The position numbers were made by a program, and so were the translations under genes. A stretch of 64,000 nucleotides of DNA, taken from the IMG/VR virus record IMGVR_UViG_3300043448_000423, positions 6,071-70,070 of that record. One strand, given 5' to 3'. The DNA comes from a virus. Shown here one piece after another: positions 1 to 34,423 of this stretch. A model generated the notes under the pieces. The model was given only the letters and a program-made list of their open reading frames with translations. It made no database searches and was not told where the DNA came from. How positions within the stretch are numbered: the first letter of the stretch is position 1; each line of letters opens with the position of its first letter.

Positions 1-105
1 GCTGTTTCCGAAGTAGGAAACTGGCAAAATAAAACTGACAGTGATTGGAAACACGTTATCAATCGCGCAGCAGATACTCCTGGTTCTAATATTAATCGTC
101 TCTAA
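1..105 (+). CDS. 3' end of an upstream gene (partial), conserved cyanophage protein preceding phoH
   Basis: Open frame from base 1 (AVSEVGNWQNKTDSDWKHVINRAADTPGSNINRL) to TAA at 103-105. Confidence 0.6.
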   Translation, partial: AVSEVGNWQNKTDSDWKHVINRAADTPGSNINRL

Positions 106-107
106 TT

Positions 108-866
108 ATGCCTGTAAGAAATCGTAAGACAAAACAAGCTGTTCCAACGGGAATGAGCGTGAAACAAATGAAGCGTAAGAAGCCTCTCAACGAAGAATAT
201 TTCGCTAAGGATATCGAACCTCTTACAGATTCACAACGTAAGATGTTTGAAGAGTGGGAAAACGATAAGCATCTATTTGCTTATGGTGCCGCTGGAACTG
301 GTAAAACATTCGTAGCACTTTACCTCGCTCTCAAAGATGTTCTTAACGAGAACACTCCATACGAAAAAGTATATATTGTTCGTTCACTTGTAGCGACACG
401 CGAGATTGGTTTCCTTCCTGGCGACCATGAAGATAAGTCATCGCTCTACCAGATTCCATATAAGAATATGGTAAAGTATATGTTTGAACTCCCAACAGAT
501 GAAGAGTTTGAACTACTCTATGGCAATCTAAAGAACCAAGGAACGATTAGCTTCTGGTCTACTTCATTTCTTCGTGGCACCACCATGGATAACTGCATCA
601 TCATCGTAGATGAAATGCAGAATCTAAACTTCCATGAACTTGATTCAATCATCACTCGCGTGGGTCAAGATTGTAAGATTATTTTTTCAGGTGACGTTCA
701 GCAGACCGATCTAATTCGTACCAACGAACGTAATGGTATCCTTGACTTCCAAAAGATTATCAATACAATGGAAGAGTTTGCAACCATTGAATTTGGTGTG
801 CAAGACATCGTTCGTTCTGGTTTAGTTCGCAGTTATATTATTAGCAAAATTAATTTGGGATTCTAA
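108..866 (+). CDS. phoH: PhoH-family ATPase
   Basis: Walker A GAAGTGKT, REIGFLPG, SFLRGTT, IVDEMQN, SGDVQQTDL and DIVRSGLV are PhoH motifs. Confidence 0.95.
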   Translation: MPVRNRKTKQAVPTGMSVKQMKRKKPLNEEYFAKDIEPLTDSQRKMFEEWENDKHLFAYGAAGTGKTFVALYLALKDVLNENTPYEKVYIVRSLVATREIGFLPGDHEDKSSLYQIPYKNMVKYMFELPTDEEFELLYGNLKNQGTISFWSTSFLRGTTMDNCIIIVDEMQNLNFHELDSIITRVGQDCKIIFSGDVQQTDLIRTNERNGILDFQKIINTMEEFATIEFGVQDIVRSGLVRSYIISKINLGF

Positions 867-5870: not shown

Positions 5871-5908
5871 AAATATAAATATAAAACTACTCATAGGTAT
5901 TTAGAAGA

Positions 5909-19933: not shown

Positions 19934-19963
19934 AGCAATGTGGCGCTTTGAGGTCTGGGTCTT

Positions 19964-20225: not shown

Positions 20226-20228
20226 TTT

Positions 20229-20300: not shown

Positions 20301-20301
20301 C

Positions 20302-20330
20302 TTGACAATCTGAGCACTTGCTGCTATGAT
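20302..20330 (+). promoter_or_regulatory. sigma70-type promoter for tRNA-Leu
   Basis: TTGACA-N17-TATGAT. Confidence 0.7.
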
Positions 20331-20344: not shown

Positions 20345-20427
20345 GGGAGCGTGGCGTAATCGGTAGCCGCATCGGACTTAAAATCCGCTGGTCTTAGACC
20401 GTGGGGGTTCGAGTCCCCCCGCTCCTA
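20345..20427 (+). tRNA. tRNA-Leu(TAA)
   Basis: GGGAGCG/CGCTCCT-A, CGGA-CTTAAAA-TCCG, long variable arm, GTTCGAGTCC. Confidence 0.92.
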
Positions 20428-20459
20428 TTTCCCACTAAATATAATGTAGTGGGAATGTT

Positions 20460-20726
20460 ATGAAATACACATTATCACAAGCATATGTCTTTTATATGGG
20501 ACAGGTTGTGCGTATGTATTTCATACAAGGTCTTCCTTATACATTTGATGAACTTCCTCAAATTATACAAGACCACCCATCAGTTCAAACAGAAGCCCTT
20601 CATCATAAAGATTATGATGATGAAGAGTTATATAAATATTCTAACTATCTTATTATGGAGGAAATGCATCCTTTAATGTTTGATATTCAAATAGAAAACC
20701 CCGATTTACTTCCGAAAGATGATTGA
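20460..20726 (+). CDS. Conserved cyanophage hypothetical protein
   Basis: VVRMYFIQGLPYTFDELP..YLIMEEMHPLMF; overlaps the cpeT start. Confidence 0.7.
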   Translation: MKYTLSQAYVFYMGQVVRMYFIQGLPYTFDELPQIIQDHPSVQTEALHHKDYDDEELYKYSNYLIMEEMHPLMFDIQIENPDLLPKDD

Positions 20727-21225
20727 TAAATTCTGTAATTGGTTTGAAGGAGAATACAATAATCAACGCCAGGCATTTGAAAATCCTACGCGATTTGCCA
20801 TGATTGAAATTTTTCATGAAAAAATTGGTGAATTGTCATTTTCCATCACTCAACAATATATGGTAGATAAAGTGCCATATAGAAAAGCAATTATTGAAGT
20901 AATTCAATTAGATGAACTTAATTTAATTCTTAAAAATTATCGTGAGGACTTGACGCCTCTCCCAGGATGTGATATAATGGTATCATATTCACCAGAAAAT
21001 GATGAATTTGTTGGTGGTATTCAGGGTACAGAATGTATAGTTCCATGGTCACAAAATGGTCAAATCATTCAAACATATCTTTCTACACAATTTATTCTTT
21101 CTGAATTAAGTTATAAAGTTCAAGATAAAGGATACGATAATCAAGGAAATAGAGTTTGGGGTTCTGAACATGGATTTTTTAATTTTATAAAACAATCTTC
21201 CAATCAATTTAAATTGCCTCAGTAG
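20719..21225 (+). CDS. cpeT: T-type phycobilin lyase (CpeT/CpcT-like)
   Basis: GEYNNQRQAFENPTRFAMI..PYR..GCD..F.G....EC....GYD..GNRVWGS..GFFNF is the CpcT/CpeT pattern. Confidence 0.88.
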   Translation: MIDKFCNWFEGEYNNQRQAFENPTRFAMIEIFHEKIGELSFSITQQYMVDKVPYRKAIIEVIQLDELNLILKNYREDLTPLPGCDIMVSYSPENDEFVGGIQGTECIVPWSQNGQIIQTYLSTQFILSELSYKVQDKGYDNQGNRVWGSEHGFFNFIKQSSNQFKLPQ

Positions 21226-21287
21226 CACAGTGGTAGTGCAGCCGCCTTGTAAGCGGCAGGTCGTTGGTTCAAATCCGATCTGGGGCT
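21216..21287 (+). tRNA. tRNA-Thr(TGT)
   Basis: GCCTCAG/CTGGGGC-T, CCGC-CTTGTAA-GCGG, GTTCAAATCC; overlaps the last 10 nt of cpeT. Confidence 0.92.
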
Positions 21288-21311
21288 CTCCGTGTGAAGG
21301 AAGTCAAATAT

Positions 21312-21337
21312 ACCTGAGGATCCCCTCAGGTTTTTTT
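21312..21337 (+). terminator. Intrinsic terminator
   Basis: CCTGAGG-ATCC-CCTCAGG followed by T7. Confidence 0.85.
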
Positions 21338-21338
21338 G

Positions 21339-21346
21339 TATAAATA
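21339..21346 (+). promoter_or_regulatory. T4-type late promoter (gp55)
   Basis: TATAAATA 40 nt upstream of the giant structural gene. Confidence 0.75.
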
Positions 21347-21385
21347 ACTCAGAAGAAATCACCATAATTACGGGTTACTGAGAAG

Positions 21386-24300
21386 ATGCCATTAACCAGA
21401 TTAGATAATCTACTTTCAAGTAAAACTGGTAAGTACATATATGTCTCTCCTGATGACTTTAACGCTACAGATGCATTAGATAATAGAGGAAACACTCCGT
21501 TAAGACCTTTTGTTACAATCCAGAGAGCTTTCTTGGAAGTAGCTCGTTATTCATATGTTCCTGGCGTCGATAATGATCGTTTTGATCAATTTACGATCAT
21601 GCTTGCTCCTGGAACACACTATGTTGACAATAGGCCAGGTGATTTAGATGTAGCAAATATTCCCGTTTTTAATTTTGATTCTAATACTGGGGAGTGGAAC
21701 GATTCTTCAATCTTAGATCTATCAAACCCCAACAACATTCTTTATCGTTTCAATGGTCGTGATGGTGGTGCGACTATTCCTAGAGGAACTTCTCTTGTTG
21801 GTACAGACCTTCGTAGAACTCAGGTTCGTGCTCTCTATATTCCAGATCCTGCCGACAAAGATGTTCCGCGATGTGCATTATTCAATGTAACTGGTGGATG
21901 CTATTTTTGGCAATTTACCATTCTTGATTCACAAGTAGAAGGTGGACCTCTTAACGGTAAAGTATACAGTCAACCAGGATCAACTCAATCAGCGACACCT
22001 CTTTTCTCTCACCACAAAATGACAAACTTTGTCTTTGCGGACAGAGATGATTTAAGTTTACTTTATAGGAAAATTGCAAAATGCTTTAGTAAGTATCAAA
22101 CTGCAATTGATGATGTTTATGCTAAAGAAGTAACGGCAAACAACGGTAGAGTATCTGATACTTGGGATGCTAGCACATCAAAGACATATGCTCAAAACGA
22201 TACTGTAGTATTTGGTGGAAATGCATATCAAGCTGTAATTGCTCACACTTCATCTTCCGACAAGAGACCTGATAAAAACAAAACATATTGGAAGATTCTC
22301 ACCACAACTTCAAGAGAATTTGATTACGCTGTTCAAGAGAATAGAATTGTTGGTCCTCTTGCGGATACAATTCAAATTGATGATATTACAATTAGCGAAT
22401 ATAACACAGAAACATTAAATGTTAAAGTAAGAACTAAAATTAATCATAATTTATTCCCAACACAATATGTTGTTGTTGCAAATACTGGTTTCAGTAATTT
22501 ACTACACGGTTCTTTTGAAGTAGTAAGCATTAGTGAAACAAATCCAAAAGAATTTACATATAGAACTAAGGCAACACTTGCTCAGGTCAGTTTTGCCAAT
22601 AACGAAACTCAAATTCCACCAGATGCGAATGCCAGCATTCAAGCAGAAGTTGACTCTGTAGAATCAGCATCACCATACGTCTTCAACGTTTCGATTCGTT
22701 CAACTTGGGGTATTTGTGGTATCTGGGCTGATGGTCGCAAGGCGACTGGTTTCAAATCGATGGTTATCGCCCAGTATACGGGTGTTTCGCTACAGAAAGA
22801 CGACCGTGCGTTTATTCGCTACGATGAATTTACCAACACTTGGAATGAAGCTCCTCTAACTGATGCATTTGCTACCACTCCTTATCACATCAAGGGAGAT
22901 GCATATTGGAAGGATGACTGGAGAAACTTCCACGTTCGTGCTTCGGACGACTCTTTCATTCAGAACGTTTCTATCTTCGCTGTAGGTTTTGCTGACCACT
23001 TCCTGCTTGAGTCAGGTGGTGACATGTCTATCACCAACTCAAACTCGAACTTTGGTAACACTTCGATGCACTCGAAGGGATTTAAAGGGTTTGCGTTCAA
23101 CCAAGACAAGGGTGGATACATCACTGATATTATTCCACCACAGTCATTTTCTAGCACACCAACTACAACTAAAGTTTCCTATTATCCATTTGATGTTCAA
23201 TTAACTAGAGGAAGTCAAGATACTGGTGGATCTTGGTTGTCTCAACCAAAATTATATTTGACAGGTGATAAAGCAAATAATTACTTAGACAGACCAGCTG
23301 TAAGTATTAATGGATACAGATTAGGTGCTAGAACCTATATTAATTCAAGTAAAGCAGAAAAAATTTATACTAAAATTAGTGCCGATACTGCAGCGGGAGA
23401 AACCCAACCAACTGTCAAGGAAGCTTTCTTGTATCCACAAGGATTTAAAAAATGGACTGCAACTTTAACAACTTTAAGTCCAGGTAATTTAGGAGTTGGT
23501 AATTTTGATAATAACCCAGCAACAAATGAAACAGCAGATAAAGCATTTTATAATAGATGTCAAGATGCTGCAAATTTAATTGATGCTAATAAAACTTTTA
23601 TTCAAGCAGAAACTTTTGGTTATATTATTGAAAAATATCCATATTTACAGGATAGACCATATGTAAATCCAAATATTACTGCAGAAACTGGAAGATATAG
23701 AGATGGTAGTAATTTAATTAAAGCTAACCGTGCTGAGATTGTTGATTATGCATTTACTCAAATGCAAACAGCATTCCCCACATTTACTGTTCCTGGTAAT
23801 GATAACGATAAGTGTAAGCGCGACATTGGATATATTGTAGATGCTATTGCTCAAGATTTATATGATGGTGGTAACGAAAATATTATTAACGCCACAAAAT
23901 CATATTTTGGTGCATATGCTAGTATTTCTTCAGTATCTAGAACAAATAATGTAGCTACAATTACTACATCAACTCCACATAATTTAGCTGTAGGAGCAGT
24001 AGTTGCAATCAATTGTAGTATTGACGCTTTTGATGATCCATCTGCAACAGTATTATCAGTTCCATCTACTACAACCTTTACCTATACTAACGTTGGAACT
24101 AATTTATCTAATACTGCTACTGGTACGGTAAGCACAGAATCTGGATCTCCAATTTCCAATGGATTGGTGGGCGAAGAAACACAATCAATCTTTGCTTTTA
24201 ATAGAGTTAAAGATTGGGCAAAGAAAGCAATTTCTAACCAGTTAACATATAAATCTCTTCTTAATGTTACTTCAATTACTGCTAGTGGAACAACTGTAAC

Positions 24301-27300
24301 GGTAACTGTAAATTCATCAAATCCACATGGATTGAAAGTTGGCGATGAAGTTACTATTGGTGGAGCAACTCAAACAGGATATAATGGTAAGTGGAAGGTT
24401 TTAGCATCTGGTCTAACAACTACTGTTTTCAGAGTAACTGTAAATACAACTCCAGCAGCATCCCCAGCAACTGGTGCTTATTATGTTTCAAATATTACTA
24501 TTGATCCAGAAAATGCACTAGAAGAAGCTGGTCGTTACAAAGATGCTAGCAACTTAGTCACTGCAAACCGCCAAGAAATTATTGATAGAGCGTTTGCTGA
24601 GGTTTCACTGCAGTATGACGAATCGGCGTGGGGTACTAATTGGGTAGTACCTGGAGATTCAACTACAGATGACAACAACCGTTATAGAGATGCATATCGC
24701 CTGATTCAAAGGAATCGTCAGGAAGTTATTGATAGAGCATTTGGTGAGATTGCTGTTCAATATACTGAAGCATCTTGGGGAACTAACTGGGTTGTTCCTG
24801 GTGATTCTGTAACTACTACTCTTTCTCGTTATCTAGATGCATATCGTCTCATTCAAAGAAACAGAAACATCATTGTTGAGACAGCTTATGCAACAGTAGT
24901 TGCCAATCCACCATCACCAGCACCAACAAATCTTCTTTCTAAGTGTAAGAGAGATATTGGATATTTTGTTGATGCTGTTTCTCTTGATATTTTACTTGGT
25001 GGTGGAAACGTATACACTCGTAAGTTTACTCAATCATACTTCTCCAACAACACCACATTACTAACCAATGGTCTTGCTGGTGAAGTAACTCAATCTAACA
25101 CAGCATTCAACAAAGCTCGTGATGCGATGAAGTCAGCAATCAAGAATCTACTCGGTTCTTTTGCTGGTGTTGTTACATCATCTCCAGCTGGTGGAACATG
25201 GATTGATGGAAGTTCAGGCACAAAAACTGTCTATACTGATGGCACTATCACTACTGATAGTACACCTGGAACTCAGGGAGTTTGCACCAACGTTCAAGAT
25301 GCAATTGATACTTTAACATCAGTCGTTACTACTGCTCTAACTAACGTTAATCTCGGCACTCTTCCTGCCGAATCGAACGGTATCACAGAAGGAGCTGGCG
25401 AACTCAAGTGTATGCGTGATATTGGTTACTTTATCGATGCTGTGTCTCTTGATATTGCTCAAGCTGGTGGAAACAGATATTCACGCAAATTCATTCAGCA
25501 GTATTTCACAAATAGCACCACTCTTCTAACAAATGGTCTTGCTGGAGAAACATCACAGTCAGTGATTGCCTTCAATATGGCAAGAGACATGATGAAGAAG
25601 GCGTTGACTAATCAGTTGTATGTCAAGGATCTAACTTTATCTGCTGGTCCTGCAACTTATGGTGGCGGTGGTGGAAACATTACGGTTGATCAATCAGGTA
25701 ATGCTGCATCTTGTGCTGATGTACAATCTACCGTAGATACTCTAACTGCAGTTATAACATCTCCACTAACTGCTGGAAATCTCACCTCTCTTCCTGCAGA
25801 AACAGTTGGCACAGTTCCAGCTGGAGAAACTAAGTGTAAGCGTGATCTTGGTTACATTGTAGATTCCATCGCTCAGGATCTCTTCTGGGGTGGTAACGAG
25901 TTTACGATTGATGCGGTCAAAGAATATTTCACTAACACAACTACATTATTAACCAACGGTTTAACTGGAGAATTAACACAATCTGTTGTTGCATTTAATG
26001 CTGCAAAAGAGATGGTCAAGAAAGCAGTATCCAACCAACTATATTCTAAGAATTTAACACTGTCATATGGTCCTGCTAATTATGGTGGAACTGGTGGCAA
26101 TGTAACTTATAATCAATCTGGTAACTCTGCTACATGTACTGATGTACAAGCAACAGTTGATACTTTATTTGGTATCGTTACTTCAACACTCAATGCTGGA
26201 AGTTTGTCGAGTTTACCACAGCTTTCAAATGGTCAGTGGGATTGCGCTAACGTAAGAGCAACTATTGATACTTTAACTGCTATTATTACTACAACATTAA
26301 AAGAAGGATCATTAGCTAATCTTCCAGCGGTTTCTCCTGGATTGTGGTCTCAGGTAAATGAATACAGCAAATGTAAGAGAGATATTGGTTATATTGTTGA
26401 AGCGATTACTTCTGATTTACGCCTGGGTGGAAACGAAGCTACAGTAAATGCTGCTGAGGCATATTATACTGGAACAGGCAATTTTACTGTTACTGGTACT
26501 TTATCAACTTCGGGTATAATTACTGGTATTTCTAGCACAGCTGGATTACTTGCAGGAATGTCGGTAACTAAAACTTCAGGTGCTGGTGCCTTCGGTGATA
26601 ATGCTGTAATTCAATCTGTTGATAGTTCATCACAAATTACCGTTGCTATTTCTTCTGGTAGTTTTACTGCTGGTTCTATAACATTTACTGCAAACCAACT
26701 TGATTATATTGAAAACGAGAGAGTAGAAACTCTTGATGCATATGATTATGTTAAACAACTTATGATTTCTTCTATGAGAAATCATAATACTTATATTCCA
26801 ACTGCTAATGTATCATTTAGTACTTCTTCTTCTATTGTCACATTGACTGGCGGCAGAACTACTGCTGGTTTGGTAGTTGGTATGAAGGTTCAAAGTGTTA
26901 CTACAATTCCTAGTGATACTGGTAGCAACTCAACAACAAATTATAATGATTCTCTCGAAGAAATTGTAGATGGTAGAGTTGTTCCAAAAGCATCAAACGT
27001 AAGTACAAGAATTTCCACTGGAACTTATATCAAGAATATTATTAGTTCAACTCAATTTGAGTTGGGTGAAAAAGGAAGTAAGTTAAATATTGGACTAAGC
27101 AAGAAACCATCTTCTAATACTACTGCAAATCTTTTCTTCTCAATGGAAGAAGGAACATGGTCAACTGCAGTTGAACCATCAGTAGATAATACTGTTATTC
27201 AAGTATACAATGAGTATACAAATACAAACGGAGAATGTGCTAATATTAAGAGCGCACTTGACACATATTTTACATCTATCAATACAATTATTAATAATGG

Positions 27301-30300
27301 TATAGGTCAAGTAACTAGAATTCCATCTACTATTAACACAGGTACTTTTGCTCAAAGAGCAACTTTATTTACTCTGAAAGATATTGGATCTCCAACAGAT
27401 CCTCACTTCTTACAAACAGGAACCCCAGTAAGATTGGTTCCTAGAGCAAAAGAAGGAGTTTCTGTTGATAAGCGTTTAATTCGTCTTCCAAAAGGATTTG
27501 ATACAAATACAGTTTATTATATTATTGCTCCTGGTAGGATAACAGATCCATATGATTATTCTACTACCACATCATTTAATGCTACATCTGGATCTCTACA
27601 GAATTTAATGCTAGCAACAAGTATCGAAAATGCTGCAGCAGGTATTTTTGTTTATTCTCCAGAAACAGAAGCAGTTGATCCTGACGTAGAAATTGATGTT
27701 TATCAATATCTTTTAGATTTAAAATATGATTTAAGTAAGTATGAAACTACTGTCAAAGCAAGTAATTTAGAAATATTAACTACAACAGAACCACATATTT
27801 TTGACGTTCCAACAACTTCTGATACATTAACTGATACACAAAGATTTACTTCTGTATTCTTTAAACCCATTGGTAGTGGTGGTCTTCCATCTATTTCTGG
27901 TGGAACTACTTTAAATCCAAATAAAGAATATTATGTTAGATATGTAAGTAAATATGAATTTAAAGTTTATGATACTTTAAATGCAGCTATTAACAATCCA
28001 GGTTCGCCTTTAGTATTTACTTCTGGATTTACACAAAAGTTTTATGTTCTCTCCAATAAGAGAAGATCTCCATTGAGATATGATCCAGCAGCTACTACAG
28101 CAAATACAAGTGATGGTACTTGGTATCTTCAAACTGATACAAGTAAAACTAATAGTATTTTAACTAGAATCAGATCAAATGATTTTGAGACAAAAGATAA
28201 AACACCAGATAGCTGGTTTGAAAGATTGTCTGACGATAGATCTAAAGAAGATAGAGTATATAGATTACGTTATGTAATTCCTAAGTACCTTAAATCTGTT
28301 CGTGATCCTCTTCGTGGATTTGTAATTAAATCTAGAACAGATTCCACAAGAAAATTACAACCTCAAAAGATACTTTTAAAACCAACTGCTAGCGGAAATT
28401 CTTTTGCCCAATTTAGTATTCCAAATACTACTGCTGCCGCTCCTGGATTGACATCTGGTAAAGAATATCTTGGTCTAGATGTTAATTCGCAAGGTCCAAA
28501 CTTTATCTCTGCTTATGATCCATATAATCCAGAATTACAGGATCCTACACAACCAACCACTTCTTCTCCAAGATTTAGAGTAAGAAAAACTACAAGTGCA
28601 AAAGTTACATTTTATGTACAATCTTCGAGAAAAAGAACAGTTAATAATAAAGATTATCTAGAGTTAACAGTATTTGATATTGGAATTGAGGAGCAAGGAT
28701 ATAAACAAAAAATCTTTACCAGTGTAGAAATTACTCCACCTCAAGGTGGCGATGGAATATTTGTTTCAAATACATCTAATTTACCATCGAATGATACTTC
28801 AACAGATATTACATGGTCTGGCGCTACTGAAGGTAGTGCAAGAGTACATGCATATTACGAATATGAAGGCAAGCATTATTTAATTTTGAAAGATGTAAAT
28901 ACAATTACATCTACTTTAGAGTATAGTCCTTTCCAAGTAACTACCTTTACACAAGGATTAGTATCTGCCAAATTACTAACTGAGCCAGATTTTGGTAGAT
29001 CATCTAGAGATAGATACTTATATGTAACTGAAGGAGCAAATGTATATACAATGACTCCAGGTGATACATTGACAGATGATACTGGAGTTTCTTATACTAT
29101 TGCAGAGGTTGAAGATGTACAGGATTTTGACAAAACATTTTACATTTATGATGTTAATACTATTCGCAGAAGAATTTATGGTCAGCAAGATGGTATTTAC
29201 TATCTAACTTGCATTAGAGGAGATATTAGTCCATATCCAACTGGATCTGGAGTTGGAGAAAACTTCAAGAATTTCAAATTTAGTCAACCAATTTCAAAAT
29301 TATATCCAGAGTTTTATAAAAATGATCCAGAGTGGTATAAACAAATAGATTCTACATTGACGGATCCTCCAGAAACTATTTCTGCTGCTGACAATTATAT
29401 ACATGGTTTAGTTACAGTTAATGATTCTAAAGGATCTACTACTAAAGAAGCAATCCTTGATTTTATCTCTGATCCAGGATCTAAACAGTACTATTTTAGT
29501 GGAAATGTTGTAAAAGATAGTAAAATAATTAATGTTGATATAGCTGCACAAGAAGGAACCGCTTCCGCTGGTTCTGAAGGAAGAAAGATTCCTATTTCTG
29601 GTAATTCTTTATATCCAACGGAAGGGAGATTGTATGTAGAACTTCGTAGACCATCTATTGCTCGTTCTGGTAACCACACGTTTGAATATCTTGGTTTTGG
29701 TCCTGGTAACTACTCAACTGGTTTCCCACTTCGTCAAGAAGTTGTTCTATCTGATATTCAAGATTTCTATGCTCAGGCAAAGAGAGAAAATGCTGGTATT
29801 GTATTCTATACTGGATTAAACTCCAATGGTGATTTGTATATTGGTAACAGAAAGATTAATGCTATTACAGGGGAGGAAACGTATTTAGAATCTGCTGCTC
29901 TAGTAACTAGTGCTGACGAAGGAGATACGATAGGAAATTTTGTAACAACTTTTGATGGTCCAGTTACATTTAATGATAAGGTTTCATTCCTTGCTCCTAT
30001 TTCGAAGAGTCCTATGGTATCCCAAGCTCCATGGCAATGGGATGTACCAGCTCAAGATCCAGCAAGTCCTACACTTGCATTGTCACCACCTTCTATTGAA
30101 ATTCTATCTAACACTGCAACTGGTGATGATAGCAGTTTAACCAGTAATACTAAAACTGGTAAAACTACAGGATCTATTACTTTAACAGGAAATAGAATAT
30201 CATCGGCAATTTACAATTTTAATAATAGAGGTATACAGACCTATAGCATAAGAACTGCGGTAGAGCAGTGGACTCCAAATCAATTAAATCCATATGGAAA

Positions 30301-33300
30301 TTCATCACAAAGTCAAGTAATTAACTTTGGATCAAGATTCCCATTAATATCTGGAGATATTTTATTCAAAGGAGAACAGGTAGGATTCTCTGGATCTTTG
30401 GGATGGATTTATGCAAGTAATTTTGTAACAATTTCTCACACATCACTTTCTGACAAATTAAGTACATTAATTGGATATGGATCTGGTTCTGGAAATAACA
30501 AAATAAGATTAAATTGGGCAGTTAATCCACAAACTAGCGTAGCGTATACTAATGCTGAAATTGGTATTACATCTTCTGAATATCAAGTTAGGATTGCTGG
30601 ATCATTTAGTTCAACTCAAGCATCTTTAGGACAAAAAGTTTTAGGAACTTGGCCTATAATTAGCAGTAGTTTTGTTGCAAGTAATTCATATATTGATTTA
30701 CAGATAACAGATACTGTTAGTGTTGGAACATATATTATAACTTATGCTCAAGAACCAAATATTAGTATTTCTTTCTCAAATAATCAATGGAAAGAAGTCG
30801 GTGTTCTGGGTGCGGAAGTAATTAGAACGGAAACAGATAGTATTGGTAATTATAAATTAGGAATCAATACAGTTGCTAGATCTGCTACATCTGCATATCT
30901 GACTGCGTTTGTTGATCCTGCTACCACAAATCCGAGAGCAAATCTTGACGTGGTAGGTGACGCATTTATTAGCGGAAAATCACAACCATCTGGATCATCT
31001 TTTGAAACTTCTACAACAAAAACAGAAACTGGATTAATCAATGCTTTCTTAGTTGGTGGATTTAGTTCTGCGCCATCAAGATTTGCAACTCTAAGAGTAG
31101 ATACATTAAATAATCGTGTTGGTATTAACACAACCAAACAACTTTCTATTTCACAGGTTGCTCGTTCTAGCAACGTTGCTACTATAACGACCTCAACTGC
31201 TCATGGATTAGTTGCTGGTAATCAAGTTACAATTGATATAACTGGAACTACCTATGCATCGTTTGATGCTACTGCTGCTACAATTCTTGCAAGTCCAGCA
31301 CCTACAACTACTTCGTTTAGTTATAGTAATACTGGAAGCACTGTGAGTGTTACGGCATTACCTAACGGAACAACTGGTACAGTAATTAAACCATCAAATG
31401 ATTTAGATAGAACACTTGTTGTTGATGGAACTTCTAGATTTACTGATAATGTAAGATTTGAAAAAGATATTGAAATTAATGGTGGTGATATTGAAACAAC
31501 ATTAACTACTCAAAATTTCAATTTCTTAAATCAGAGTACATATACTGGAAGTGTTACAGAATCTAGTGGCGTTTATACAACAACTGGTGTAAACATTGCA
31601 AATTATGCTGCTTCAATTAATATTGGTACTAGTAGAACTGATGATCAGTTTATTAATATTGCAAATTCTTCTGATCATGTAAATATCAGAATTGCCAATA
31701 ATGTTTCAACAGGCACTTCTGCGACATCTAATATTTCTAAAGTTAATATTGGTGGAGCATATGGAAATAACGAAACTAACAGTTATGTTTCTTTGGATTC
31801 TAAATCAACTAGAATTGCTGGTGATGTAACTATTGGTTATCAGAAAGGATTGACTGAAGCATTAACAATTGCTAGCACAGCTGGCACAGTTAATTTCTTT
31901 AACACCATCACATCAACTATGAATTTTGGTGGGGGTGTTTCTACTCTTACAATGGGTGGACAAGGTGGACAAACTAGAATTAAGAATGCTCTTACTGTTG
32001 ATGCTTCGTTGACAGTAAAATCAAATATTACTTTAGTTGGTGGTTTATTATCGCTTAATTTCTCTGCAAACAGAGGAGCACTTGGGTCAACGGCAACTGC
32101 ACATACAGGAACAGCAACAGGTACACCAGCATCAAATACAGTTGATATTATTACAATTGTTAGCACTGATTCTGGGTATACTAATCAAGTTGATACTGCT
32201 ACTTCTGGTGTATGGGGTTCGTCTGCTACTGATGCATCGTATCAGCAATCATTTAATACTGGAGCTACTGCGGAACCAATTACTTTACCTGCTTTAACTG
32301 GAAATTTCTATTACTTACCTCTGAAATATGCTCCTACTGGAAACAGAGCTCTTGCAATTGGAGATTATTTGTTAATTGATAGTACTCCAGGAGCAAATAG
32401 ATGGCCAGAAATTGTAAGAATTTCTTCTTTACCACAAAATGCTTCTACTTATAGTTCTGCAACTGGTCCATACTGGGTTGCAGTTGAAAGATTATCAATT
32501 GGTACATTTTTACCAAAACCAAGTAATGGACATTTAGATGATACTACTATTTACAGAGTAAATATTCAATTTGATGCTACTTGGTTAACTAATAGTCCAA
32601 CATCTTCTTCAACATCTTTCTCTCTTGCTGAAATTGGTGGAAGTATTAATAATGGAGATTATATAATTGTTGATAGAAATGATTCTGGAACTTCTGGCGA
32701 AGCAGTTAAAATTACTGGAACAACACAATCAACTCCTAAAAAATTAACAGTCAATAATGGTGCTGCTACACCTCTGACAGTTTTTGAAGTTGATTCGACA
32801 AATGGAAATACTATTATTGGCAATCCGAATTTAACTACTGCCAATGGTAGTGTGACAATGTATGGAGGATTGACACTTGTAGGTGGAACTCCATCTGGAG
32901 GAACATGTGAAGTATTGAAAATTACTGATGGAGTTAATACTACTTTATCGGTAAACACTTGCACAGGTGATACTGTAATAGGAAATGCTATTGGTGAGAT
33001 TACTGCTAATAGAGCAGAATTTGGAACAACTGCCGCCGCTCATAGTGCTGGCGCAACTGCCACAGTTATATTAACTTCTCCTGCTACAGATAATGCTGTT
33101 GGTTCTACGTTATTGAGTCAGGCAATTACTTCTACAACTGCAACTACAATTTACGTTAATGATATAACTGGTTTTAAATATGATGCAGAAACTGGTGGAA
33201 ATATTTACATTCTAGTAAGTCAGGAATCTGGCGGTGAATTTATGAGAATTACTGCAACTCCAGTTAAAACTGGAACGGCAGATAACTCTGGATATCTCAT

Positions 33301-34423
33301 TGTTGCTAGAGGACAGTTATCGACTACTGCTAAAACTCATAGTGCAAATGCGGCTGTTAAAGAAATGTATCTCCGCGAGGAGACAACAACTATTATTGAT
33401 GCAATTAATGGAACAGCAACAAGTGGTTTAATAACTATTAAATTAACGAATTCAGATTTAGTTCCTAAGTATCTAGATAGACAACATTATGTTTTAATTG
33501 ATAGTGAGTGGTTTATTGTTAATAGTAGCACAGTAAATGCTCTTAATATTAAATTAGTTAAAACAAATTATGAAAGAGGGGATTTAACTGTTCATGATGA
33601 TGTAACGGTTAAGGGTGGAAATTTTGATATTAAGGGCACTGAAGGATTAATTTCATTGTTCCGTGTAGAAAATAATGATGAACACCATTATGAGCCAGGT
33701 AGGGTTGGGATTTTTGCTGATACAAAAATAAGTGGAAACTTACGTCTATATCCAGCGTTGTGTGTTGAAGATCCAGCTGCTACACAACTCAATTCTCCAA
33801 ACCCATTTGAAAATACTACTGATCCAGTTTTCTCTATTGATTCAGTATATGGTGATACATCTGTTGGTAGATTATTAACTGTAAAGGGCATCTCCTCTAC
33901 ATCTCCATCTGCTGCTCAGGCAATATTCGACGTACAAAAACTCGGTGTAAATGGTGCAAATAACTTTACAATAAGACAAGATGGTTCTATTGATAGTTTT
34001 GGTCAAACTGGATTCTATACTAAAACTGGTGGAAGAAAGTGGCAATTTGTAAATACTTCAGGAACTAATCTACAATCTAACGTAAATTATGCAGTTGCAG
34101 TTGTTTCTGGCACAGGAACATTTATTTTAAATCTACCTTCCACTCCGAATACAGGAGATATGATAAGATTTGTTGAAGTTGCTGGTGCATTATCATATAA
34201 TAATACTTTGGTAATTAGAGCTCCAATTGTAAATGGAAACCCAGTTCCTATTCAAGGAGACACTATTGGAACTACATTAGGTGGATTGACAACACCATAT
34301 GCAAGTGGAGAATTAGTTGTTCAAACAAGAAATGCTGGATTTGGATTGCTATATATTGGACCAACAGATGGAACTAATTTTATCCCATCTGCTTATCAAG
34401 GTTGGTGGTTAGTGGAGGTTTGA
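21386..34423 (+). CDS. Giant (4345 aa) virion structural/fibre protein with CBM5/12-like module, H-x-L-x-x-G beta modules and five nested phycobiliprotein-like domains
   Basis: MPLTRLDN..YVSPDDFNATD N-terminus and GWWLVEV C-terminus as in large cyanomyovirus structural proteins; late promoter; repeated KCxRDIGY motifs. Confidence 0.85.
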   Translation: MPLTRLDNLLSSKTGKYIYVSPDDFNATDALDNRGNTPLRPFVTIQRAFLEVARYSYVPGVDNDRFDQFTIMLAPGTHYVDNRPGDLDVANIPVFNFDSNTGEWNDSSILDLSNPNNILYRFNGRDGGATIPRGTSLVGTDLRRTQVRALYIPDPADKDVPRCALFNVTGGCYFWQFTILDSQVEGGPLNGKVYSQPGSTQSATPLFSHHKMTNFVFADRDDLSLLYRKIAKCFSKYQTAIDDVYAKEVTANNGRVSDTWDASTSKTYAQNDTVVFGGNAYQAVIAHTSSSDKRPDKNKTYWKILTTTSREFDYAVQENRIVGPLADTIQIDDITISEYNTETLNVKVRTKINHNLFPTQYVVVANTGFSNLLHGSFEVVSISETNPKEFTYRTKATLAQVSFANNETQIPPDANASIQAEVDSVESASPYVFNVSIRSTWGICGIWADGRKATGFKSMVIAQYTGVSLQKDDRAFIRYDEFTNTWNEAPLTDAFATTPYHIKGDAYWKDDWRNFHVRASDDSFIQNVSIFAVGFADHFLLESGGDMSITNSNSNFGNTSMHSKGFKGFAFNQDKGGYITDIIPPQSFSSTPTTTKVSYYPFDVQLTRGSQDTGGSWLSQPKLYLTGDKANNYLDRPAVSINGYRLGARTYINSSKAEKIYTKISADTAAGETQPTVKEAFLYPQGFKKWTATLTTLSPGNLGVGNFDNNPATNETADKAFYNRCQDAANLIDANKTFIQAETFGYIIEKYPYLQDRPYVNPNITAETGRYRDGSNLIKANRAEIVDYAFTQMQTAFPTFTVPGNDNDKCKRDIGYIVDAIAQDLYDGGNENIINATKSYFGAYASISSVSRTNNVATITTSTPHNLAVGAVVAINCSIDAFDDPSATVLSVPSTTTFTYTNVGTNLSNTATGTVSTESGSPISNGLVGEETQSIFAFNRVKDWAKKAISNQLTYKSLLNVTSITASGTTVTVTVNSSNPHGLKVGDEVTIGGATQTGYNGKWKVLASGLTTTVFRVTVNTTPAASPATGAYYVSNITIDPENALEEAGRYKDASNLVTANRQEIIDRAFAEVSLQYDESAWGTNWVVPGDSTTDDNNRYRDAYRLIQRNRQEVIDRAFGEIAVQYTEASWGTNWVVPGDSVTTTLSRYLDAYRLIQRNRNIIVETAYATVVANPPSPAPTNLLSKCKRDIGYFVDAVSLDILLGGGNVYTRKFTQSYFSNNTTLLTNGLAGEVTQSNTAFNKARDAMKSAIKNLLGSFAGVVTSSPAGGTWIDGSSGTKTVYTDGTITTDSTPGTQGVCTNVQDAIDTLTSVVTTALTNVNLGTLPAESNGITEGAGELKCMRDIGYFIDAVSLDIAQAGGNRYSRKFIQQYFTNSTTLLTNGLAGETSQSVIAFNMARDMMKKALTNQLYVKDLTLSAGPATYGGGGGNITVDQSGNAASCADVQSTVDTLTAVITSPLTAGNLTSLPAETVGTVPAGETKCKRDLGYIVDSIAQDLFWGGNEFTIDAVKEYFTNTTTLLTNGLTGELTQSVVAFNAAKEMVKKAVSNQLYSKNLTLSYGPANYGGTGGNVTYNQSGNSATCTDVQATVDTLFGIVTSTLNAGSLSSLPQLSNGQWDCANVRATIDTLTAIITTTLKEGSLANLPAVSPGLWSQVNEYSKCKRDIGYIVEAITSDLRLGGNEATVNAAEAYYTGTGNFTVTGTLSTSGIITGISSTAGLLAGMSVTKTSGAGAFGDNAVIQSVDSSSQITVAISSGSFTAGSITFTANQLDYIENERVETLDAYDYVKQLMISSMRNHNTYIPTANVSFSTSSSIVTLTGGRTTAGLVVGMKVQSVTTIPSDTGSNSTTNYNDSLEEIVDGRVVPKASNVSTRISTGTYIKNIISSTQFELGEKGSKLNIGLSKKPSSNTTANLFFSMEEGTWSTAVEPSVDNTVIQVYNEYTNTNGECANIKSALDTYFTSINTIINNGIGQVTRIPSTINTGTFAQRATLFTLKDIGSPTDPHFLQTGTPVRLVPRAKEGVSVDKRLIRLPKGFDTNTVYYIIAPGRITDPYDYSTTTSFNATSGSLQNLMLATSIENAAAGIFVYSPETEAVDPDVEIDVYQYLLDLKYDLSKYETTVKASNLEILTTTEPHIFDVPTTSDTLTDTQRFTSVFFKPIGSGGLPSISGGTTLNPNKEYYVRYVSKYEFKVYDTLNAAINNPGSPLVFTSGFTQKFYVLSNKRRSPLRYDPAATTANTSDGTWYLQTDTSKTNSILTRIRSNDFETKDKTPDSWFERLSDDRSKEDRVYRLRYVIPKYLKSVRDPLRGFVIKSRTDSTRKLQPQKILLKPTASGNSFAQFSIPNTTAAAPGLTSGKEYLGLDVNSQGPNFISAYDPYNPELQDPTQPTTSSPRFRVRKTTSAKVTFYVQSSRKRTVNNKDYLELTVFDIGIEEQGYKQKIFTSVEITPPQGGDGIFVSNTSNLPSNDTSTDITWSGATEGSARVHAYYEYEGKHYLILKDVNTITSTLEYSPFQVTTFTQGLVSAKLLTEPDFGRSSRDRYLYVTEGANVYTMTPGDTLTDDTGVSYTIAEVEDVQDFDKTFYIYDVNTIRRRIYGQQDGIYYLTCIRGDISPYPTGSGVGENFKNFKFSQPISKLYPEFYKNDPEWYKQIDSTLTDPPETISAADNYIHGLVTVNDSKGSTTKEAILDFISDPGSKQYYFSGNVVKDSKIINVDIAAQEGTASAGSEGRKIPISGNSLYPTEGRLYVELRRPSIARSGNHTFEYLGFGPGNYSTGFPLRQEVVLSDIQDFYAQAKRENAGIVFYTGLNSNGDLYIGNRKINAITGEETYLESAALVTSADEGDTIGNFVTTFDGPVTFNDKVSFLAPISKSPMVSQAPWQWDVPAQDPASPTLALSPPSIEILSNTATGDDSSLTSNTKTGKTTGSITLTGNRISSAIYNFNNRGIQTYSIRTAVEQWTPNQLNPYGNSSQSQVINFGSRFPLISGDILFKGEQVGFSGSLGWIYASNFVTISHTSLSDKLSTLIGYGSGSGNNKIRLNWAVNPQTSVAYTNAEIGITSSEYQVRIAGSFSSTQASLGQKVLGTWPIISSSFVASNSYIDLQITDTVSVGTYIITYAQEPNISISFSNNQWKEVGVLGAEVIRTETDSIGNYKLGINTVARSATSAYLTAFVDPATTNPRANLDVVGDAFISGKSQPSGSSFETSTTKTETGLINAFLVGGFSSAPSRFATLRVDTLNNRVGINTTKQLSISQVARSSNVATITTSTAHGLVAGNQVTIDITGTTYASFDATAATILASPAPTTTSFSYSNTGSTVSVTALPNGTTGTVIKPSNDLDRTLVVDGTSRFTDNVRFEKDIEINGGDIETTLTTQNFNFLNQSTYTGSVTESSGVYTTTGVNIANYAASINIGTSRTDDQFINIANSSDHVNIRIANNVSTGTSATSNISKVNIGGAYGNNETNSYVSLDSKSTRIAGDVTIGYQKGLTEALTIASTAGTVNFFNTITSTMNFGGGVSTLTMGGQGGQTRIKNALTVDASLTVKSNITLVGGLLSLNFSANRGALGSTATAHTGTATGTPASNTVDIITIVSTDSGYTNQVDTATSGVWGSSATDASYQQSFNTGATAEPITLPALTGNFYYLPLKYAPTGNRALAIGDYLLIDSTPGANRWPEIVRISSLPQNASTYSSATGPYWVAVERLSIGTFLPKPSNGHLDDTTIYRVNIQFDATWLTNSPTSSSTSFSLAEIGGSINNGDYIIVDRNDSGTSGEAVKITGTTQSTPKKLTVNNGAATPLTVFEVDSTNGNTIIGNPNLTTANGSVTMYGGLTLVGGTPSGGTCEVLKITDGVNTTLSVNTCTGDTVIGNAIGEITANRAEFGTTAAAHSAGATATVILTSPATDNAVGSTLLSQAITSTTATTIYVNDITGFKYDAETGGNIYILVSQESGGEFMRITATPVKTGTADNSGYLIVARGQLSTTAKTHSANAAVKEMYLREETTTIIDAINGTATSGLITIKLTNSDLVPKYLDRQHYVLIDSEWFIVNSSTVNALNIKLVKTNYERGDLTVHDDVTVKGGNFDIKGTEGLISLFRVENNDEHHYEPGRVGIFADTKISGNLRLYPALCVEDPAATQLNSPNPFENTTDPVFSIDSVYGDTSVGRLLTVKGISSTSPSAAQAIFDVQKLGVNGANNFTIRQDGSIDSFGQTGFYTKTGGRKWQFVNTSGTNLQSNVNYAVAVVSGTGTFILNLPSTPNTGDMIRFVEVAGALSYNNTLVIRAPIVNGNPVPIQGDTIGTTLGGLTTPYASGELVVQTRNAGFGLLYIGPTDGTNFIPSAYQGWWLVEV

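What the first reader, a model, noticed from the sequence alone, without database searches (positions are those of the whole stretch)
20719..27300. Candidate bilin-decorated virion: giant structural protein with five phycobiliprotein-like domains encoded next to a T-type bilin lyase
Seen in sequence: the 4345-aa late protein has five copies each of three motifs. (a) An R-x-x-D-A-x-x-L-[IV]-x-x-N-x3-[IV] helix, several ending in P/PG, e.g. RYKDASNLVTANRQEIIDRAF..VVPG. (b) KCxRD[IL]GY[IF][VI]..D...GG, with Cys codons at 23813, 24944, 25409, 25835 and 26372. (c) A terminal Cys helix at 25283, 25712, 26135, 26243 and 27236, e.g. GECANIKSALDTYF. Established knowledge, recalled from memory: these resemble beta-phycocyanin RLD.VNRITSNA..IV..A......P....PG, the alpha-phycocyanin Cys84 site KCARDIGYYLR...AGG, and the beta-Cys155 site GDC....SE...YFD. 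T-type lyases (CpcT/CpeT) attach bilin at beta-Cys155, and to my knowledge the substrate of phage CpeT is unresolved. Inference: cpeT, the nearest protein gene upstream, may chromophorylate this virion protein. That could give a pigmented, light-responsive or phycobilisome-mimicking fibre, relevant to light-dependent cyanophage adsorption.
Basis: partly seen in the sequence, partly recalled or inferred. Interest (0 to 1): 0.92.

Follow-up and report, generated by a model that had tools for sequence, protein, structure and literature searches.

The report
Nested phycobiliprotein-like domains in cyanophage fibre
A giant tail-fibre-type protein of a marine cyanobacterial virus contains five copies, nested inside one another, of the fold of its host's light-harvesting pigment proteins with both pigment-attachment sites kept, so one can now test whether the virus particle carries pigment and senses light; pigment binding itself is not shown.

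Summary
They are real phycobiliprotein (PBP) relatives: Pfam PF00502 38.5 bits, a 71-domain profile hits solved PBPs at 8e-08, and the AlphaFold model (pLDDT 91) superposes on PBP beta subunits at Z 16.8, rmsd 2.5 A. The five domains are recursively nested. The residues that bind both beta-subunit bilins (Cys82/84, Arg, Asp, Asp39, Cys153/155 equivalents) are 97-100% conserved over more than 750 domain copies. The link to cpeT is weaker than proposed. cpeT is adjacent, but a terminator and the fibre's own late promoter separate the two genes. In 28 complete genomes cpeT never occurs without the domain (18 both, 8 neither, 2 domain only), yet a gp32 tree reduces this to about two coincident events. 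Bilin attachment is not shown. This scan had already noted such domains in at least 47 other genomes. My paper searches found no published description.

The parts
20719..21225 (+). cpeT: phage T-type bilin lyase homologue (168 aa)
   Evidence: Pfam PF06206 E 1.9e-23, 83.7 bits against cut-off 21. PHROG 488 'CpeT-like antenna protein' E 1.6e-35.
21216..21288 (+). tRNA-Thr (TGT), overlapping the cpeT stop
   Evidence: ARAGORN.
21312..21338 (+). Intrinsic-terminator-like hairpin plus T run between cpeT/tRNA-Thr and the fibre gene
   Evidence: Stem of 8 pairs, loop of 4, then TTTTTTT.
21339..21346 (+). T4-type late promoter TATAAATA, 47 nt before the fibre ATG
   Evidence: The same box lies 45-50 nt before the ATG in 22 of the 23 related loci examined. 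In the 23rd the ORF start was mis-set.
21386..34423 (+). Giant late fibre/baseplate-module protein, 4345 aa
   Evidence: phrog_4527 'short tail fiber' E 0 and phrog_529 'tail fiber' 1.8e-293. It lies between a gp5-like baseplate hub and short-tail-fibre/tail-collar genes.
24815..25375 (+). Domain 1 (innermost, contiguous): helix a (aa 1148), Cys1 aa 1187, Cys2 aa 1300
   Evidence: AF2 pLDDT 91.1, pTM 0.90. VIA Z 16.8, rmsd 2.5 A, 147 aligned to phycoerythrin beta 7ap5_BBB residues 30..184.
24668..24814 (+). Domain 2, N-terminal piece (helix a, aa 1095-1143)
   Evidence: In the 3-domain model, residues 52..417 align as one PBP fold to 5y6p_jI 34..177 (Z 14.4, 143 aligned).
25388..25789 (+). Domain 2, C-terminal piece (helices E to H, Cys1 aa 1342, Cys2 aa 1443)
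24521..24667 (+). Domain 3, N-terminal piece (helix a, aa 1046-1094)
   Evidence: Model residues 1..557 align as one PBP fold to 8u0f_C 32..176 (Z 16.7, rmsd 2.5, 142 aligned).
25814..26212 (+). Domain 3, C-terminal piece (Cys1 aa 1484, Cys2 aa 1584)
23684..24361 (+). Domain 4: helix a (aa 767-806) and helices E to G (Cys1 aa 810), interrupted by inserted beta-rich segments
   Evidence: HMM hits at aa 804-848 and 908-979. This stretch gives the best Pfam PF00502 match, aa 776-818. Pairing with its H helix is inferred from bracket order, not modelled.
26219..26320 (+). Domain 4, closing H helix (Cys2 aa 1620)
   Evidence: HMM hit at aa 1617-1644 to the H-helix part only. Bracket order.
23549..23671 (+). 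Domain 5 (outermost), helix a (aa 722-762)
   Evidence: Helix-a HMM hit. Assignment by bracket order only.
26351..27310 (+). Domain 5, helices E to H (Cys1 aa 1663, Cys2 aa 1951) with large insertions
   Evidence: HMM hit at aa 1658-1715. Cys positions. Assignment by bracket order.

Best explanation
Shown: the 4345-aa gene is a late-promoter-driven virion gene of a T4-like cyanomyovirus and sits in the baseplate/tail-fibre module. Residues about 722-1975 form a helical stalk made of five phycobiliprotein (PBP) beta-type domains inserted one inside another. Each domain takes its first helix (PBP helix B) from the outgoing part of the chain and helices E to H from the returning part. Inferred, and my preferred mechanism: the domains still bind bilin. 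Cys1 with the adjacent Arg-Asp corresponds to the beta-82/84 site. Cys2 with the helix-a Asp corresponds to the beta-153/155 site. Bilin made in the infected cell (PEB or PCB) would be attached in the cytoplasm before assembly. The phage T-type lyase CpeT would serve Cys2. A host S-type lyase or autocatalysis would serve Cys1. This would give a chromophore-bearing fibre that could make adsorption depend on light. My odds: anatomy and homology about 0.95; some bilin bound in native virions about 0.45; phage CpeT as the responsible lyase about 0.3.
For: - **Homology and fold.** Pfam PF00502 scores 38.5 bits against a cut-off of 22.2. About 104 of the 120 listed homologues carry a precomputed PF00502 hit (my count of the table). 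The A2 profile scores 8e-08 against solved PBPs, aligning profile positions 5-60 to PBP residues 39-104. In the Foldseek listing (ranks to 50, some chains omitted) every row is a PBP, nearly all beta subunits. VIA gives Z 16.8-14.4, rmsd 2.1-2.5 A, with model 1..176 matched to chain 30/32..172/177/184.
- **Nesting.** Counts of helix a and helix E are equal in 73 of 120 homologues and fully bracket-balanced in 72. The count never goes negative in 118. The three-domain model has pTM 0.86. It shows inner, middle and outer PBP folds spanning 97..274, 52..417 and 1..557.
- **Site conservation.** The invariant columns in 71 diverse domains are D8, N16, C44, R46, D47 and D58, and C157 is kept in at least 90%. 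Over 120 proteins, Cys1, Arg and Asp are 100% of 803 copies, helix-a Asp is 96.8% and Asn 100% of 857, and Cys2 is 99.3% of 758. In solved phycocyanin the beta bilins sit on Cys82 and Cys153. Beta-Asp39 H-bonds the pyrrole nitrogens of the Cys153 bilin. The two bilins are 38.7 A apart (PMC6614406, passages and Table 3). A Cys1-Cys2 disulfide within one domain is therefore unlikely.
- **cpeT.** It is adjacent here and lies upstream on the same strand in 23 of 56 related loci that have at least 1.5 kb of upstream DNA. In 28 complete cyanomyovirus genomes there are 18 with both, 8 with neither, 2 with the domain only and 0 with cpeT only.
- **Phenotype.** P-HM1 and P-HM2 do not adsorb in the dark. 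S-PM2 adsorption needs light but not photosynthesis. P-SSM2 does adsorb in the dark (PMC6628666 passages). P-HM2 and S-PM2 have both genes and P-SSM2 has neither.
Against: - No tool here can show a bound bilin.
- The domain lacks the PBP N-terminal X/Y/A helices: the match starts at residue 30-33.
- The loop between helices B and E is 8-10 residues shorter than in PBPs (alignments), so the Cys84-type pocket cannot be identical.
- cpeT is not co-transcribed with the fibre gene. A terminator and the fibre's own conserved late promoter lie between them. No TATAAATA lies within 200 nt before cpeT in 0 of 23 loci.
- In Syn9-type phages the domain gene is about 50 kb from cpeT.
- B23 and DSL-LC03 have the domains with both Cys in every copy examined, but no CpeT- or CpeS-family gene.
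- Four cluster-C phages carry an S-type lyase yet have no such domain. A phage lyase therefore need not have a phage substrate.
- On a gp32 tree the co-occurrence amounts to about two coincident changes and one discordant clade.
- The last 9 of the 28 genomes were picked with bias.
- The adsorption link rests on four phages.
- My searches found no paper reporting coloured virions; this absence is weak evidence.
Confidence: 0.45

Rival explanations
1. Structural exaptation only. A host phycobiliprotein gene was captured and recursively duplicated because the compact helical domain makes a stiff stalk of adjustable length. No bilin is bound. The conserved Cys, Arg and Asp hold the apo-domain or the inter-domain joints together, for example through disulfides between neighbouring domains or chains once the particle is in oxidising seawater. 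cpeT acts on host phycobiliproteins and is a neighbour by the general synteny of the gp5/tRNA hot-spot.
For: - Copy number runs from 3 to about 15 per protein, always in matched sets, as expected for a length-setting building block.
- The X/Y/A helices are missing and the B-E loop is shortened.
- The next helix a occupies the place of the PBP N-terminal helices, which suggests packing between domains: rows with model 66..274 matched to chain 7..177.
- cpeT is a separate, non-late transcription unit and is often far from the domain gene.
- Some phages have the domains without a lyase.
- Sullivan 2010 lists 'near gp5 with tRNAs' as a hot-spot for variable genes (PMC3037559 passage).
Against: - The invariant residues are not core hydrophobics or glycines. 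They are exactly the polar bilin ligands of PBPs, Cys-x-Arg-Asp and Asp39, plus the second attachment Cys. They stay at 97-100% while overall identity falls to about 25%.
- An intradomain disulfide is geometrically unlikely.
- Cys1 is kept in 803 of 803 copies even though Cys2 is missing in about 0.7% of 758. That is not the pattern of an obligatory pair, though the cases are few.
- Assembly takes place in the reducing cytoplasm.
Confidence: 0.35
2. The pockets bind something other than a host-type bilin, or the thiols do other chemistry, such as a metal, another tetrapyrrole or small molecule, or a covalent link to another virion protein. This would serve receptor recognition or stability.
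For: Strict conservation of the two thiols and neighbouring charged residues points to a ligand or reaction without saying which. The pocket loop differs from that of PBPs.
Against: The conserved set matches the bilin ligands of PBP beta subunits one for one. No metal-site pattern such as a His or Cys cluster appears among the invariant columns.
Confidence: 0.12
3. The domains act inside the infected cell as phycobiliprotein mimics, for example as a sink for bilins or a decoy for host lyases, linkers or proteases. They would not act as part of the particle.
For: The homology to host antenna proteins. Phage genes that manipulate the phycobilisome exist, such as viral NblA (search listing only).
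Against: The gene has a T4-type late promoter. Its N-terminal 659 residues match tail-fibre families. It lies in the baseplate/fibre module. The domains lack the helices that PBPs use to pair and assemble.
Confidence: 0.05

Closest known systems
Phycobiliprotein beta subunits (CpeB, CpcB, cryptophyte beta chains; Pfam PF00502)
   Same: Same globin-like core, helices B to H: Z 14-17, rmsd 2.1-2.5 A over 132-147 residues. Significant profile match. Cys-x-Arg-Asp on helix E, Asp on helix B and a Cys at the start of helix H at the places of beta-82/84, beta-39 and beta-153/155.
   Different: No X/Y/A helices, a shorter B-E loop and a long G-H loop. The domains are recursively nested in a 4345-aa virion protein, not free 170-aa subunits forming (alpha-beta)3 discs. 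Bilin content is unknown.
PBP-like domain of the phycobilisome core-membrane linker ApcE (chain 8imi_0, 1045 residues, listed as part of a phycobilisome core cylinder; the ApcE name is recalled)
   Same: A PBP fold embedded in a large multidomain protein with an inserted loop. It matches the outer domain of the model at Z 14.8, 128 aligned, model 1..563 to chain 48..247.
   Different: ApcE has a single PBP domain followed by linker repeats, in a cellular antenna. Here there are up to 15 domains nested in a phage fibre.
'Bacterial fluorescent protein' 8u0f chain C
   Same: Best or second-best structural match: Z 16.3 and Z 16.7. It is the only solved protein aligned by sequence over nearly the whole profile, positions 5-137.
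   Different: I know only the PDB title and did not read the paper. It is a free-standing protein of 176 residues.
Cyanophage T-type lyase PhiCpeT of P-HM1 (Gasper et al. 2017, J Biol Chem)
   Same: P0002 belongs to the same CpeT family. The role of the phage copy is called unresolved in PMC3037559 (passage).
   Different: I could not read the paper (not held). What I know of it is recalled.
Recursively nested domains such as the Si3 insertion of cyanobacterial RNA polymerase beta'
   Same: An architecture of domains inserted within domains. This parallel comes from earlier notes of this scan (e1-5874453) and I did not test it.
   Different: A different fold and a cellular enzyme, not a phage fibre.

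Membership tests
Phycobiliprotein family (Pfam PF00502) | Sequence match to the family model above its curated cut-off | tested here: met
   The whole protein scores 38.5 bits against 22.2, E 1.4e-09. Single stretches score 19.2 and 18.7 bits, each below the cut-off alone. The 71-domain profile scores 8e-08 against solved PBPs.
Phycobiliprotein family (Pfam PF00502) | Globin-like helical core (helices B, E, F', F, G, H) | tested here: met
   AF2 pLDDT 91.1. Every Foldseek row listed is a PBP. VIA Z up to 16.8, rmsd 2.5 A, 147 aligned.
Phycobiliprotein family (Pfam PF00502) | N-terminal X-Y helix hairpin that pairs alpha with beta subunits | tested here: not met
   Structural matches start at PBP residue 30-33. 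In the nested model the neighbouring helix a lies where residues 7-31 lie.
Phycobiliprotein family (Pfam PF00502) | Cys82/84 attachment site with Arg and Asp two and three residues later | tested here: met
   KCxRD occurs five times here. Cys, Arg and Asp are each 100% of 803 copies. The motif aligns to KCxRD of solved PBPs.
Phycobiliprotein beta subunits | Second attachment Cys (beta-153/155) before helix H, with Asp39 on helix B | tested here: met
   Cys2 is 99.3% of 758 copies and helix-a Asp is 96.8% of 857. The Asp aligns to PBP residue 39. Cys157 of the model sits 19 residues before the aligned C-terminus. Counting back gives residue 153 in 172-residue chains and 158 in 177-residue chains. 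This is an offset argument that assumes an ungapped helix H. The role of Asp39 is from PMC6614406.
Phycobiliprotein family (Pfam PF00502) | Covalently bound bilin chromophore | not testable with these tools
   No experiment was possible and no model coordinates or ligand modelling were available.
Phycobiliprotein family (Pfam PF00502) | Assembly into (alpha-beta)3 rings and phycobilisomes | not tested
   Unlikely given the missing X/Y helices and the fibre context. This is inference only.
CpeT/CpcT T-type bilin lyases (Pfam PF06206), for ORF 20719-21225 | Sequence match above the curated cut-off | tested here: met
   83.7 bits against 21. tblastn finds homologues in 167 phage records.
CpeT/CpcT T-type bilin lyases (Pfam PF06206) | Lyase activity at a beta-153/155-type Cys | not testable with these tools
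   Site specificity of T-type lyases is from the review PMC10452541 (passage).
Enzyme-substrate gene pair (cpeT with the PBP-like fibre) | Shared transcription unit | tested here: not met
   A terminator at 21312-21338 is followed by the late promoter at 21339-21346. The layout is conserved in related loci.
Enzyme-substrate gene pair (cpeT with the PBP-like fibre) | Co-occurrence across genomes beyond shared ancestry | tested here: inconclusive
   Of 28 genomes, 18 have both, 8 neither, 2 the domain only and 0 cpeT only. On a gp32 tree this is only about two coincident transitions.
Cyanomyovirus giant 'short tail fibre' family (phrog_4527 / phrog_529) | Full-length similarity to the family profiles | tested here: met
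   phrog_4527 E 0, 3469.7 bits. phrog_529 E 1.8e-293 over aa 1-659. The family name is an annotation, not a tested function.

The most novel reading that the evidence does not exclude
The virion carries its own photoreceptor. Host-type bilins are covalently attached to the nested phycobiliprotein-like domains of a baseplate or tail fibre, at the Cys155-type site by the phage's CpeT. Light absorbed by this pigmented stalk changes the fibre so that the phage adsorbs only in the light. This would name the long-sought substrate of phage CpeT and the mechanism of light-dependent cyanophage adsorption.
Probability: 0.27. Interest if true: 0.95.

Novelty: new variant of a known kind. Interest (0 to 1): 0.8.

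Why it matters
Two open questions in marine virology become directly testable with one protein. The first is what the widespread phage cpeT gene is for; its role is called unresolved in PMC3037559. The second is why some cyanophages adsorb only in the light, independently of host photosynthesis (PMC6628666).

If bilins are attached, this would be, as far as I know, the first virus particle shown to carry a photosynthetic-type chromophore, and a new type of light sensor.

Even without pigment, the recursive nesting of up to about 15 copies of a globin-like domain is an unusual way to build a fibre of set length. The family is large: 1474 representative clusters at E <= 0.001.

Tried and rejected
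- **Complex prediction.** Complex prediction with CpeT (A3, 19 rows) and domain 1 (A2, 71 rows) gave 'no answer', score 0.01 against a mark of 0.32, and the controls were not folded. This counts neither for nor against binding.
- **Unbiased genome sample.** I tried to get one from IMG/VR with gp32 as bait. Nearly all of the 80 loci came from contigs of 4-30 kb, with a handful longer, so they were useless for presence/absence. I dropped them and used named complete genomes instead.
- **CpeT as bait.** The search for related loci with CpeT alone found only 2 loci.
- **Weak single queries.** phmmer of aa 719-895 against PDB sequences was only suggestive (best E 0.14; 15 of 16 rows PBP alpha). So was the 3-sequence profile A1 (best E 0.11; 26 of 28 rows PBPs). 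The 71-sequence profile was needed.
- **Foldseek E-values.** They were modest (best 2.3e-03, none <= 0.001), so I relied on the VIA Z-scores.
- **A late promoter for cpeT.** The window has a TATAAATA at 20631, 89 nt before cpeT. None of the 23 related loci has one there, so I reject it.
- **Intradomain disulfide.** Rejected on geometry.
- **Does Cys2 depend on a phage cpeT?** The two cpeT-less phages keep Cys2 in every domain I examined, one protein each. This test did not support the link.
- **Literature.** Search listings, plus passages of the papers I opened, gave no description of phycobiliprotein-like domains in a phage structural protein or of pigmented virions. PF00502 together with 'phage' gave 0 papers. 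Gasper et al. 2017 is not held. Jia et al. 2010 and Clokie et al. 2008 were seen only as citations. Supplementary tables, such as Table S8 of PMC3037559 with virion proteomes, are closed and may show whether relatives of this protein are in virions.

Full report
**What is there.** The window is part of a 70-kb IMG/VR virus record. It belongs to a T4-like cyanomyovirus. The closest named relatives by DNA are Synechococcus phages S-CAM3, S-CAM1 and S-RSM4, and only short stretches match: 29 records, none covering 80% of the 8-kb query. ORF 21386-34423 encodes 4345 aa. Upstream lie a tail protein, a gp5-like baseplate hub/lysozyme, a second hub-like gene and three tRNAs. Then come a small conserved ORF (phrog_4134), cpeT (20719-21225) and tRNA-Thr. 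Downstream lie short-tail-fibre and tail-collar genes. S-PM2 has the same order. The giant protein matches PHROG families annotated as tail fibre, phrog_4527 at E 0 and phrog_529 over aa 1-659.

**Homology to phycobiliproteins.**
- Pfam PF00502 matches the whole protein above its curated cut-off: 38.5 against 22.2 bits, best stretch aa 776-818 on profile positions 36-84.
- About 104 of the 120 listed homologues carry the same precomputed hit. They include the S-RSM4 'putative short tail fibre' (my count of the table).
- I collected 91 distinct contiguous domain copies from 80 related IMG/VR loci. I thinned them to 70 at roughly 90% similarity and aligned them with window domain 1 to make A2.
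- The A2 profile hits solved phycobiliproteins at E 8e-08. All 60 rows shown are phycobiliproteins. The alignment puts helix a on PBP helix B (residues 39-62) and KCxRD on the Cys84 helix.
- AlphaFold2 with A2 gives pLDDT 91.1 and pTM 0.90.
- Every Foldseek row listed is a phycobiliprotein, nearly all beta subunits. E-values are modest, 2e-03 and weaker, with TM 0.46-0.59.
- VIA-align gives Z 16.8 to 14.4, rmsd 2.1-2.5 A and 132-147 aligned residues. Model 1..176 corresponds to chain residues 30/32 to the C-terminus.
- The domain is therefore a PBP core, helices B to H, without the N-terminal X/Y/A helices, and is closest to beta subunits.

**Nested architecture.**
- I built HMMs for helix a, helix E and helix H from the window and ran them on 120 homologues. 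Counts of a and E are equal in 73 of them. In 72 the order is a balanced bracket word. In 118 the running count never goes negative. Most of the rest carry one extra a.
- The window reads aaEaaaEHEHEHHE, and its last H is too diverged for the HMM. Proteins with 12 copies read a x10, (EH) x7, a x2, (EH) x5.
- A model of aa 1046-1609 (alignment A4, 23 rows) has pLDDT 82.4 and pTM 0.86.
- Structural alignment finds whole PBP folds spanning model 97/100..274 (inner), 52..417 (middle; Z 14.4, 143 aligned) and 1..557 (outer; Z 16.7, 142 aligned). This proves the nesting in the model.
- Domains 4 and 5 of the window are assigned by bracket order only.

**The bilin sites.**
- In A2 the only invariant columns are D8, N16, C44, R46, D47 and D58. 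C157 is among the columns kept in at least 90%.
- Over all HMM-detected copies in 120 proteins: Cys1, Arg and Asp are each 100% of 803. Helix-a Asp is 96.8% and Asn 100% of 857. Cys2 is 99.3% of 758. Detection by HMM favours motif-bearing copies.
- D8 aligns with PBP residue 39.
- Counting back from the aligned C-terminus, Cys157 falls at residue 153 of 172-residue phycocyanin beta chains and at 158 of 177-residue phycoerythrin beta chains. This offset argument assumes an ungapped helix H.
- In a solved phycocyanin the beta bilins are on Cys82 and Cys153. Asp39 H-bonds the pyrrole nitrogens of the Cys153 bilin. The two bilins are 38.7 A apart (PMC6614406, passages and Table 3).
- Each phage domain thus keeps the ligand residues of both beta-subunit sites, and the two Cys should be too far apart for a disulfide within a domain.
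- Against an identical pocket: the B-E loop is 8-10 residues shorter and the N-terminal helices are absent.

**The cpeT link.**
- Adjacency is real but does not indicate an operon. Sigma-70-like promoters lie upstream among the tRNAs. A hairpin plus T-run follows tRNA-Thr. A perfect T4 late box, TATAAATA, sits 47 nt before the fibre ATG.
- That box is present at -45 to -50 in 22 of the 23 related loci examined. The 23rd has a mis-set ORF start, and 2 of the 25 cpeT-bearing loci were skipped for broken ORFs. None of the 23 has such a box before cpeT.
- Of 56 related loci with at least 1.5 kb upstream, 23 have cpeT upstream on the same strand and 33 do not. Loci are not independent, because some are near-duplicates.
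- All five long IMG/VR records tested have a CpeT gene somewhere. It is adjacent in two, just beyond the fibre locus in one, and 50-80 kb away in two.
- I then tested 28 complete named genomes with the A2 profile and PF06206:

| Group | Genomes |
|---|---|
| Both present (18) | P-SSM4, P-HM2, Syn9, S-PM2, S-ShM2, S-SM1, P-RSM4, Syn33, Syn19, S-SSM5, P-SSM7, S-WAM1, Sf-CH3, S-RSM4, S-H9-1, S-CREM1, S-MbCM7, Sf-CH1b |
| Neither (8) | P-SSM2, S-SM2, S-SSM7, S-CREM2, S-B68, S-N03, S-H34, S-CRM01 |
| Domain only (2) | B23, DSL-LC03 |
| cpeT only (0) | none |

- The last nine genomes were chosen with bias. Five were chosen because they had the domain and were not in the 60 cpeT rows shown. Four were chosen for the converse reason.
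- Four of the five cluster-C phages carry a CpeS-type lyase, three of them above the cut-off, without any such domain.
- B23 and DSL-LC03 lack both lyase families yet keep both Cys in every domain of the protein examined.
- A gp32 tree puts P-SSM2, S-SM2 and S-SSM7 next to each other near the midpoint root. Cluster C forms one clade, and B23 with DSL-LC03 forms another. The table therefore reflects about two coincident changes and one discordant clade. It is a single-gene tree with a long B23 branch.

**Phenotype lead.** Passages of PMC6628666 say four things. P-HM1 and P-HM2 do not adsorb in the dark. P-SSM2 does, though less than in light. S-PM2 adsorption needs light but not photosynthesis. 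Light-sensitive receptors or tail fibres were proposed as the cause. P-HM2 and S-PM2 have domain and cpeT, and P-SSM2 has neither. With so few phages this is a lead, not a test.

**Spread.** The A2 profile finds 1474 representative clusters at E <= 0.001 among 1.84 billion, of which 515 are at E <= 1e-30. The best 150 are all proteins of 479-7903 aa with up to 36 matched stretches.

**Comparison and novelty.**
- The domain passes the sequence, fold and site tests for the PBP family. It fails the X/Y-helix feature. Chromophore and assembly could not be tested.
- I therefore call it a diverged PBP-fold domain in a new context, not a phycobiliprotein in the functional sense.
- Databases already flag PF00502 on these proteins. 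My ten literature searches found no paper that discusses it (in particular).
- Earlier notes of this scan report the same domains in at least 47 other genomes and the nesting in at least 12, all without evidence of pigment. A sister note covers the nesting on this very stretch. I met these notes after my own tests, and they agree with them.

**Verdict.**
- Anatomy and homology are secure.
- Pigment attachment is plausible. Its main support is the strict conservation of exactly the bilin-ligand residues.
- The specific role of CpeT rests on adjacency, on 0 of 18 cpeT genomes lacking the domain, and on site equivalence. It is weakened by separate transcription, by the phages that have the domains but no lyase, and by phylogenetic non-independence.

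Noticed in passing
window 19905-20330: Three near-consensus sigma-70-type promoters lie among the tRNA genes upstream of cpeT: TTGACA-17-TATACT at 19905, TTGACA-17-TATAAT at 19995 and TTGACA-17-TATGAT at 20302. This suggests early, host-polymerase transcription of the tRNA/cpeT block. The total count of such sites in the region is no higher than in shuffles (7 against a mean of 6.5).
   Followed up: partly
window 20401-20460: An inverted repeat CCCACTA...TAGTGGG lies directly after tRNA-Leu and just before the phrog_4134 ORF. I saw it by eye. Its function is unknown.
   Followed up: no
window 20460-20726: A small conserved ORF (88 aa, phrog_4134, unknown function) overlaps the cpeT start by 8 bases (ATGA-type overlap). 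Its homologue also directly precedes cpeT in S-PM2 (p216, T4-GC 730) and S-MbCM7. It may be a partner of CpeT.
   Followed up: partly
giant protein aa 846-920, 958-1040, 1700-1770, 1805-1940 and about aa 3300: Beta-rich segments with a recurring ...NVATITTSTxHGL..G..V.I... motif are inserted into loops of PBP-like domains 4 and 5 and recur far downstream. Domains of another fold are thus nested inside the nested PBP domains.
   Followed up: no
giant protein aa 260-302 (window about 22163-22291): A sub-threshold match to carbohydrate-binding module CBM_5_12 (E 3e-04, 21.2 bits against a cut-off of 26.2). Some homologues carry the same precomputed hit (PF02839).
   Followed up: no
model mfda239afa826 (window aa 1046-1609): In several structural alignments the helix a of the next outer domain occupies the position of the PBP N-terminal helices: model 66..274 matched to chain 7..177. 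Each domain may borrow its missing N-terminal helices from its neighbour.
   Followed up: partly
phage records OR473000, MK016664, MT162466, MT162467 (handles W15-W18): Cluster-C cyanomyoviruses carry a CpeS-type (S-type) bilin lyase but no PBP-like fibre domain and no CpeT. The target of that lyase must lie elsewhere.
   Followed up: partly
L089 (NC_006820 S-PM2, 165928-177267): The RefSeq table lists 16 tRNA features at coordinates inside the giant fibre CDS, all with the CDS's locus tag S-PM2t009. This looks like an annotation error in the record.
   Followed up: no
phage record NC_006820 (W05), 55.5-58.1 kb; FM207411 (W24), 102, 124 and 170-173 kb: Several phages carry two to four different giant proteins with PBP-like domains: S-PM2 has two, and S-RSM4 has ORFs of 4495, 3515 and 2924 aa. 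The domain is used in more than one virion component.
   Followed up: no
window 5874-5881: Only three TATAAATA boxes occur in the 64-kb window, fewer than the shuffle mean of 6.6. Two of them lie just upstream of late structural genes: the tail tube ORF at 5909 and the giant fibre gene.
   Followed up: partly
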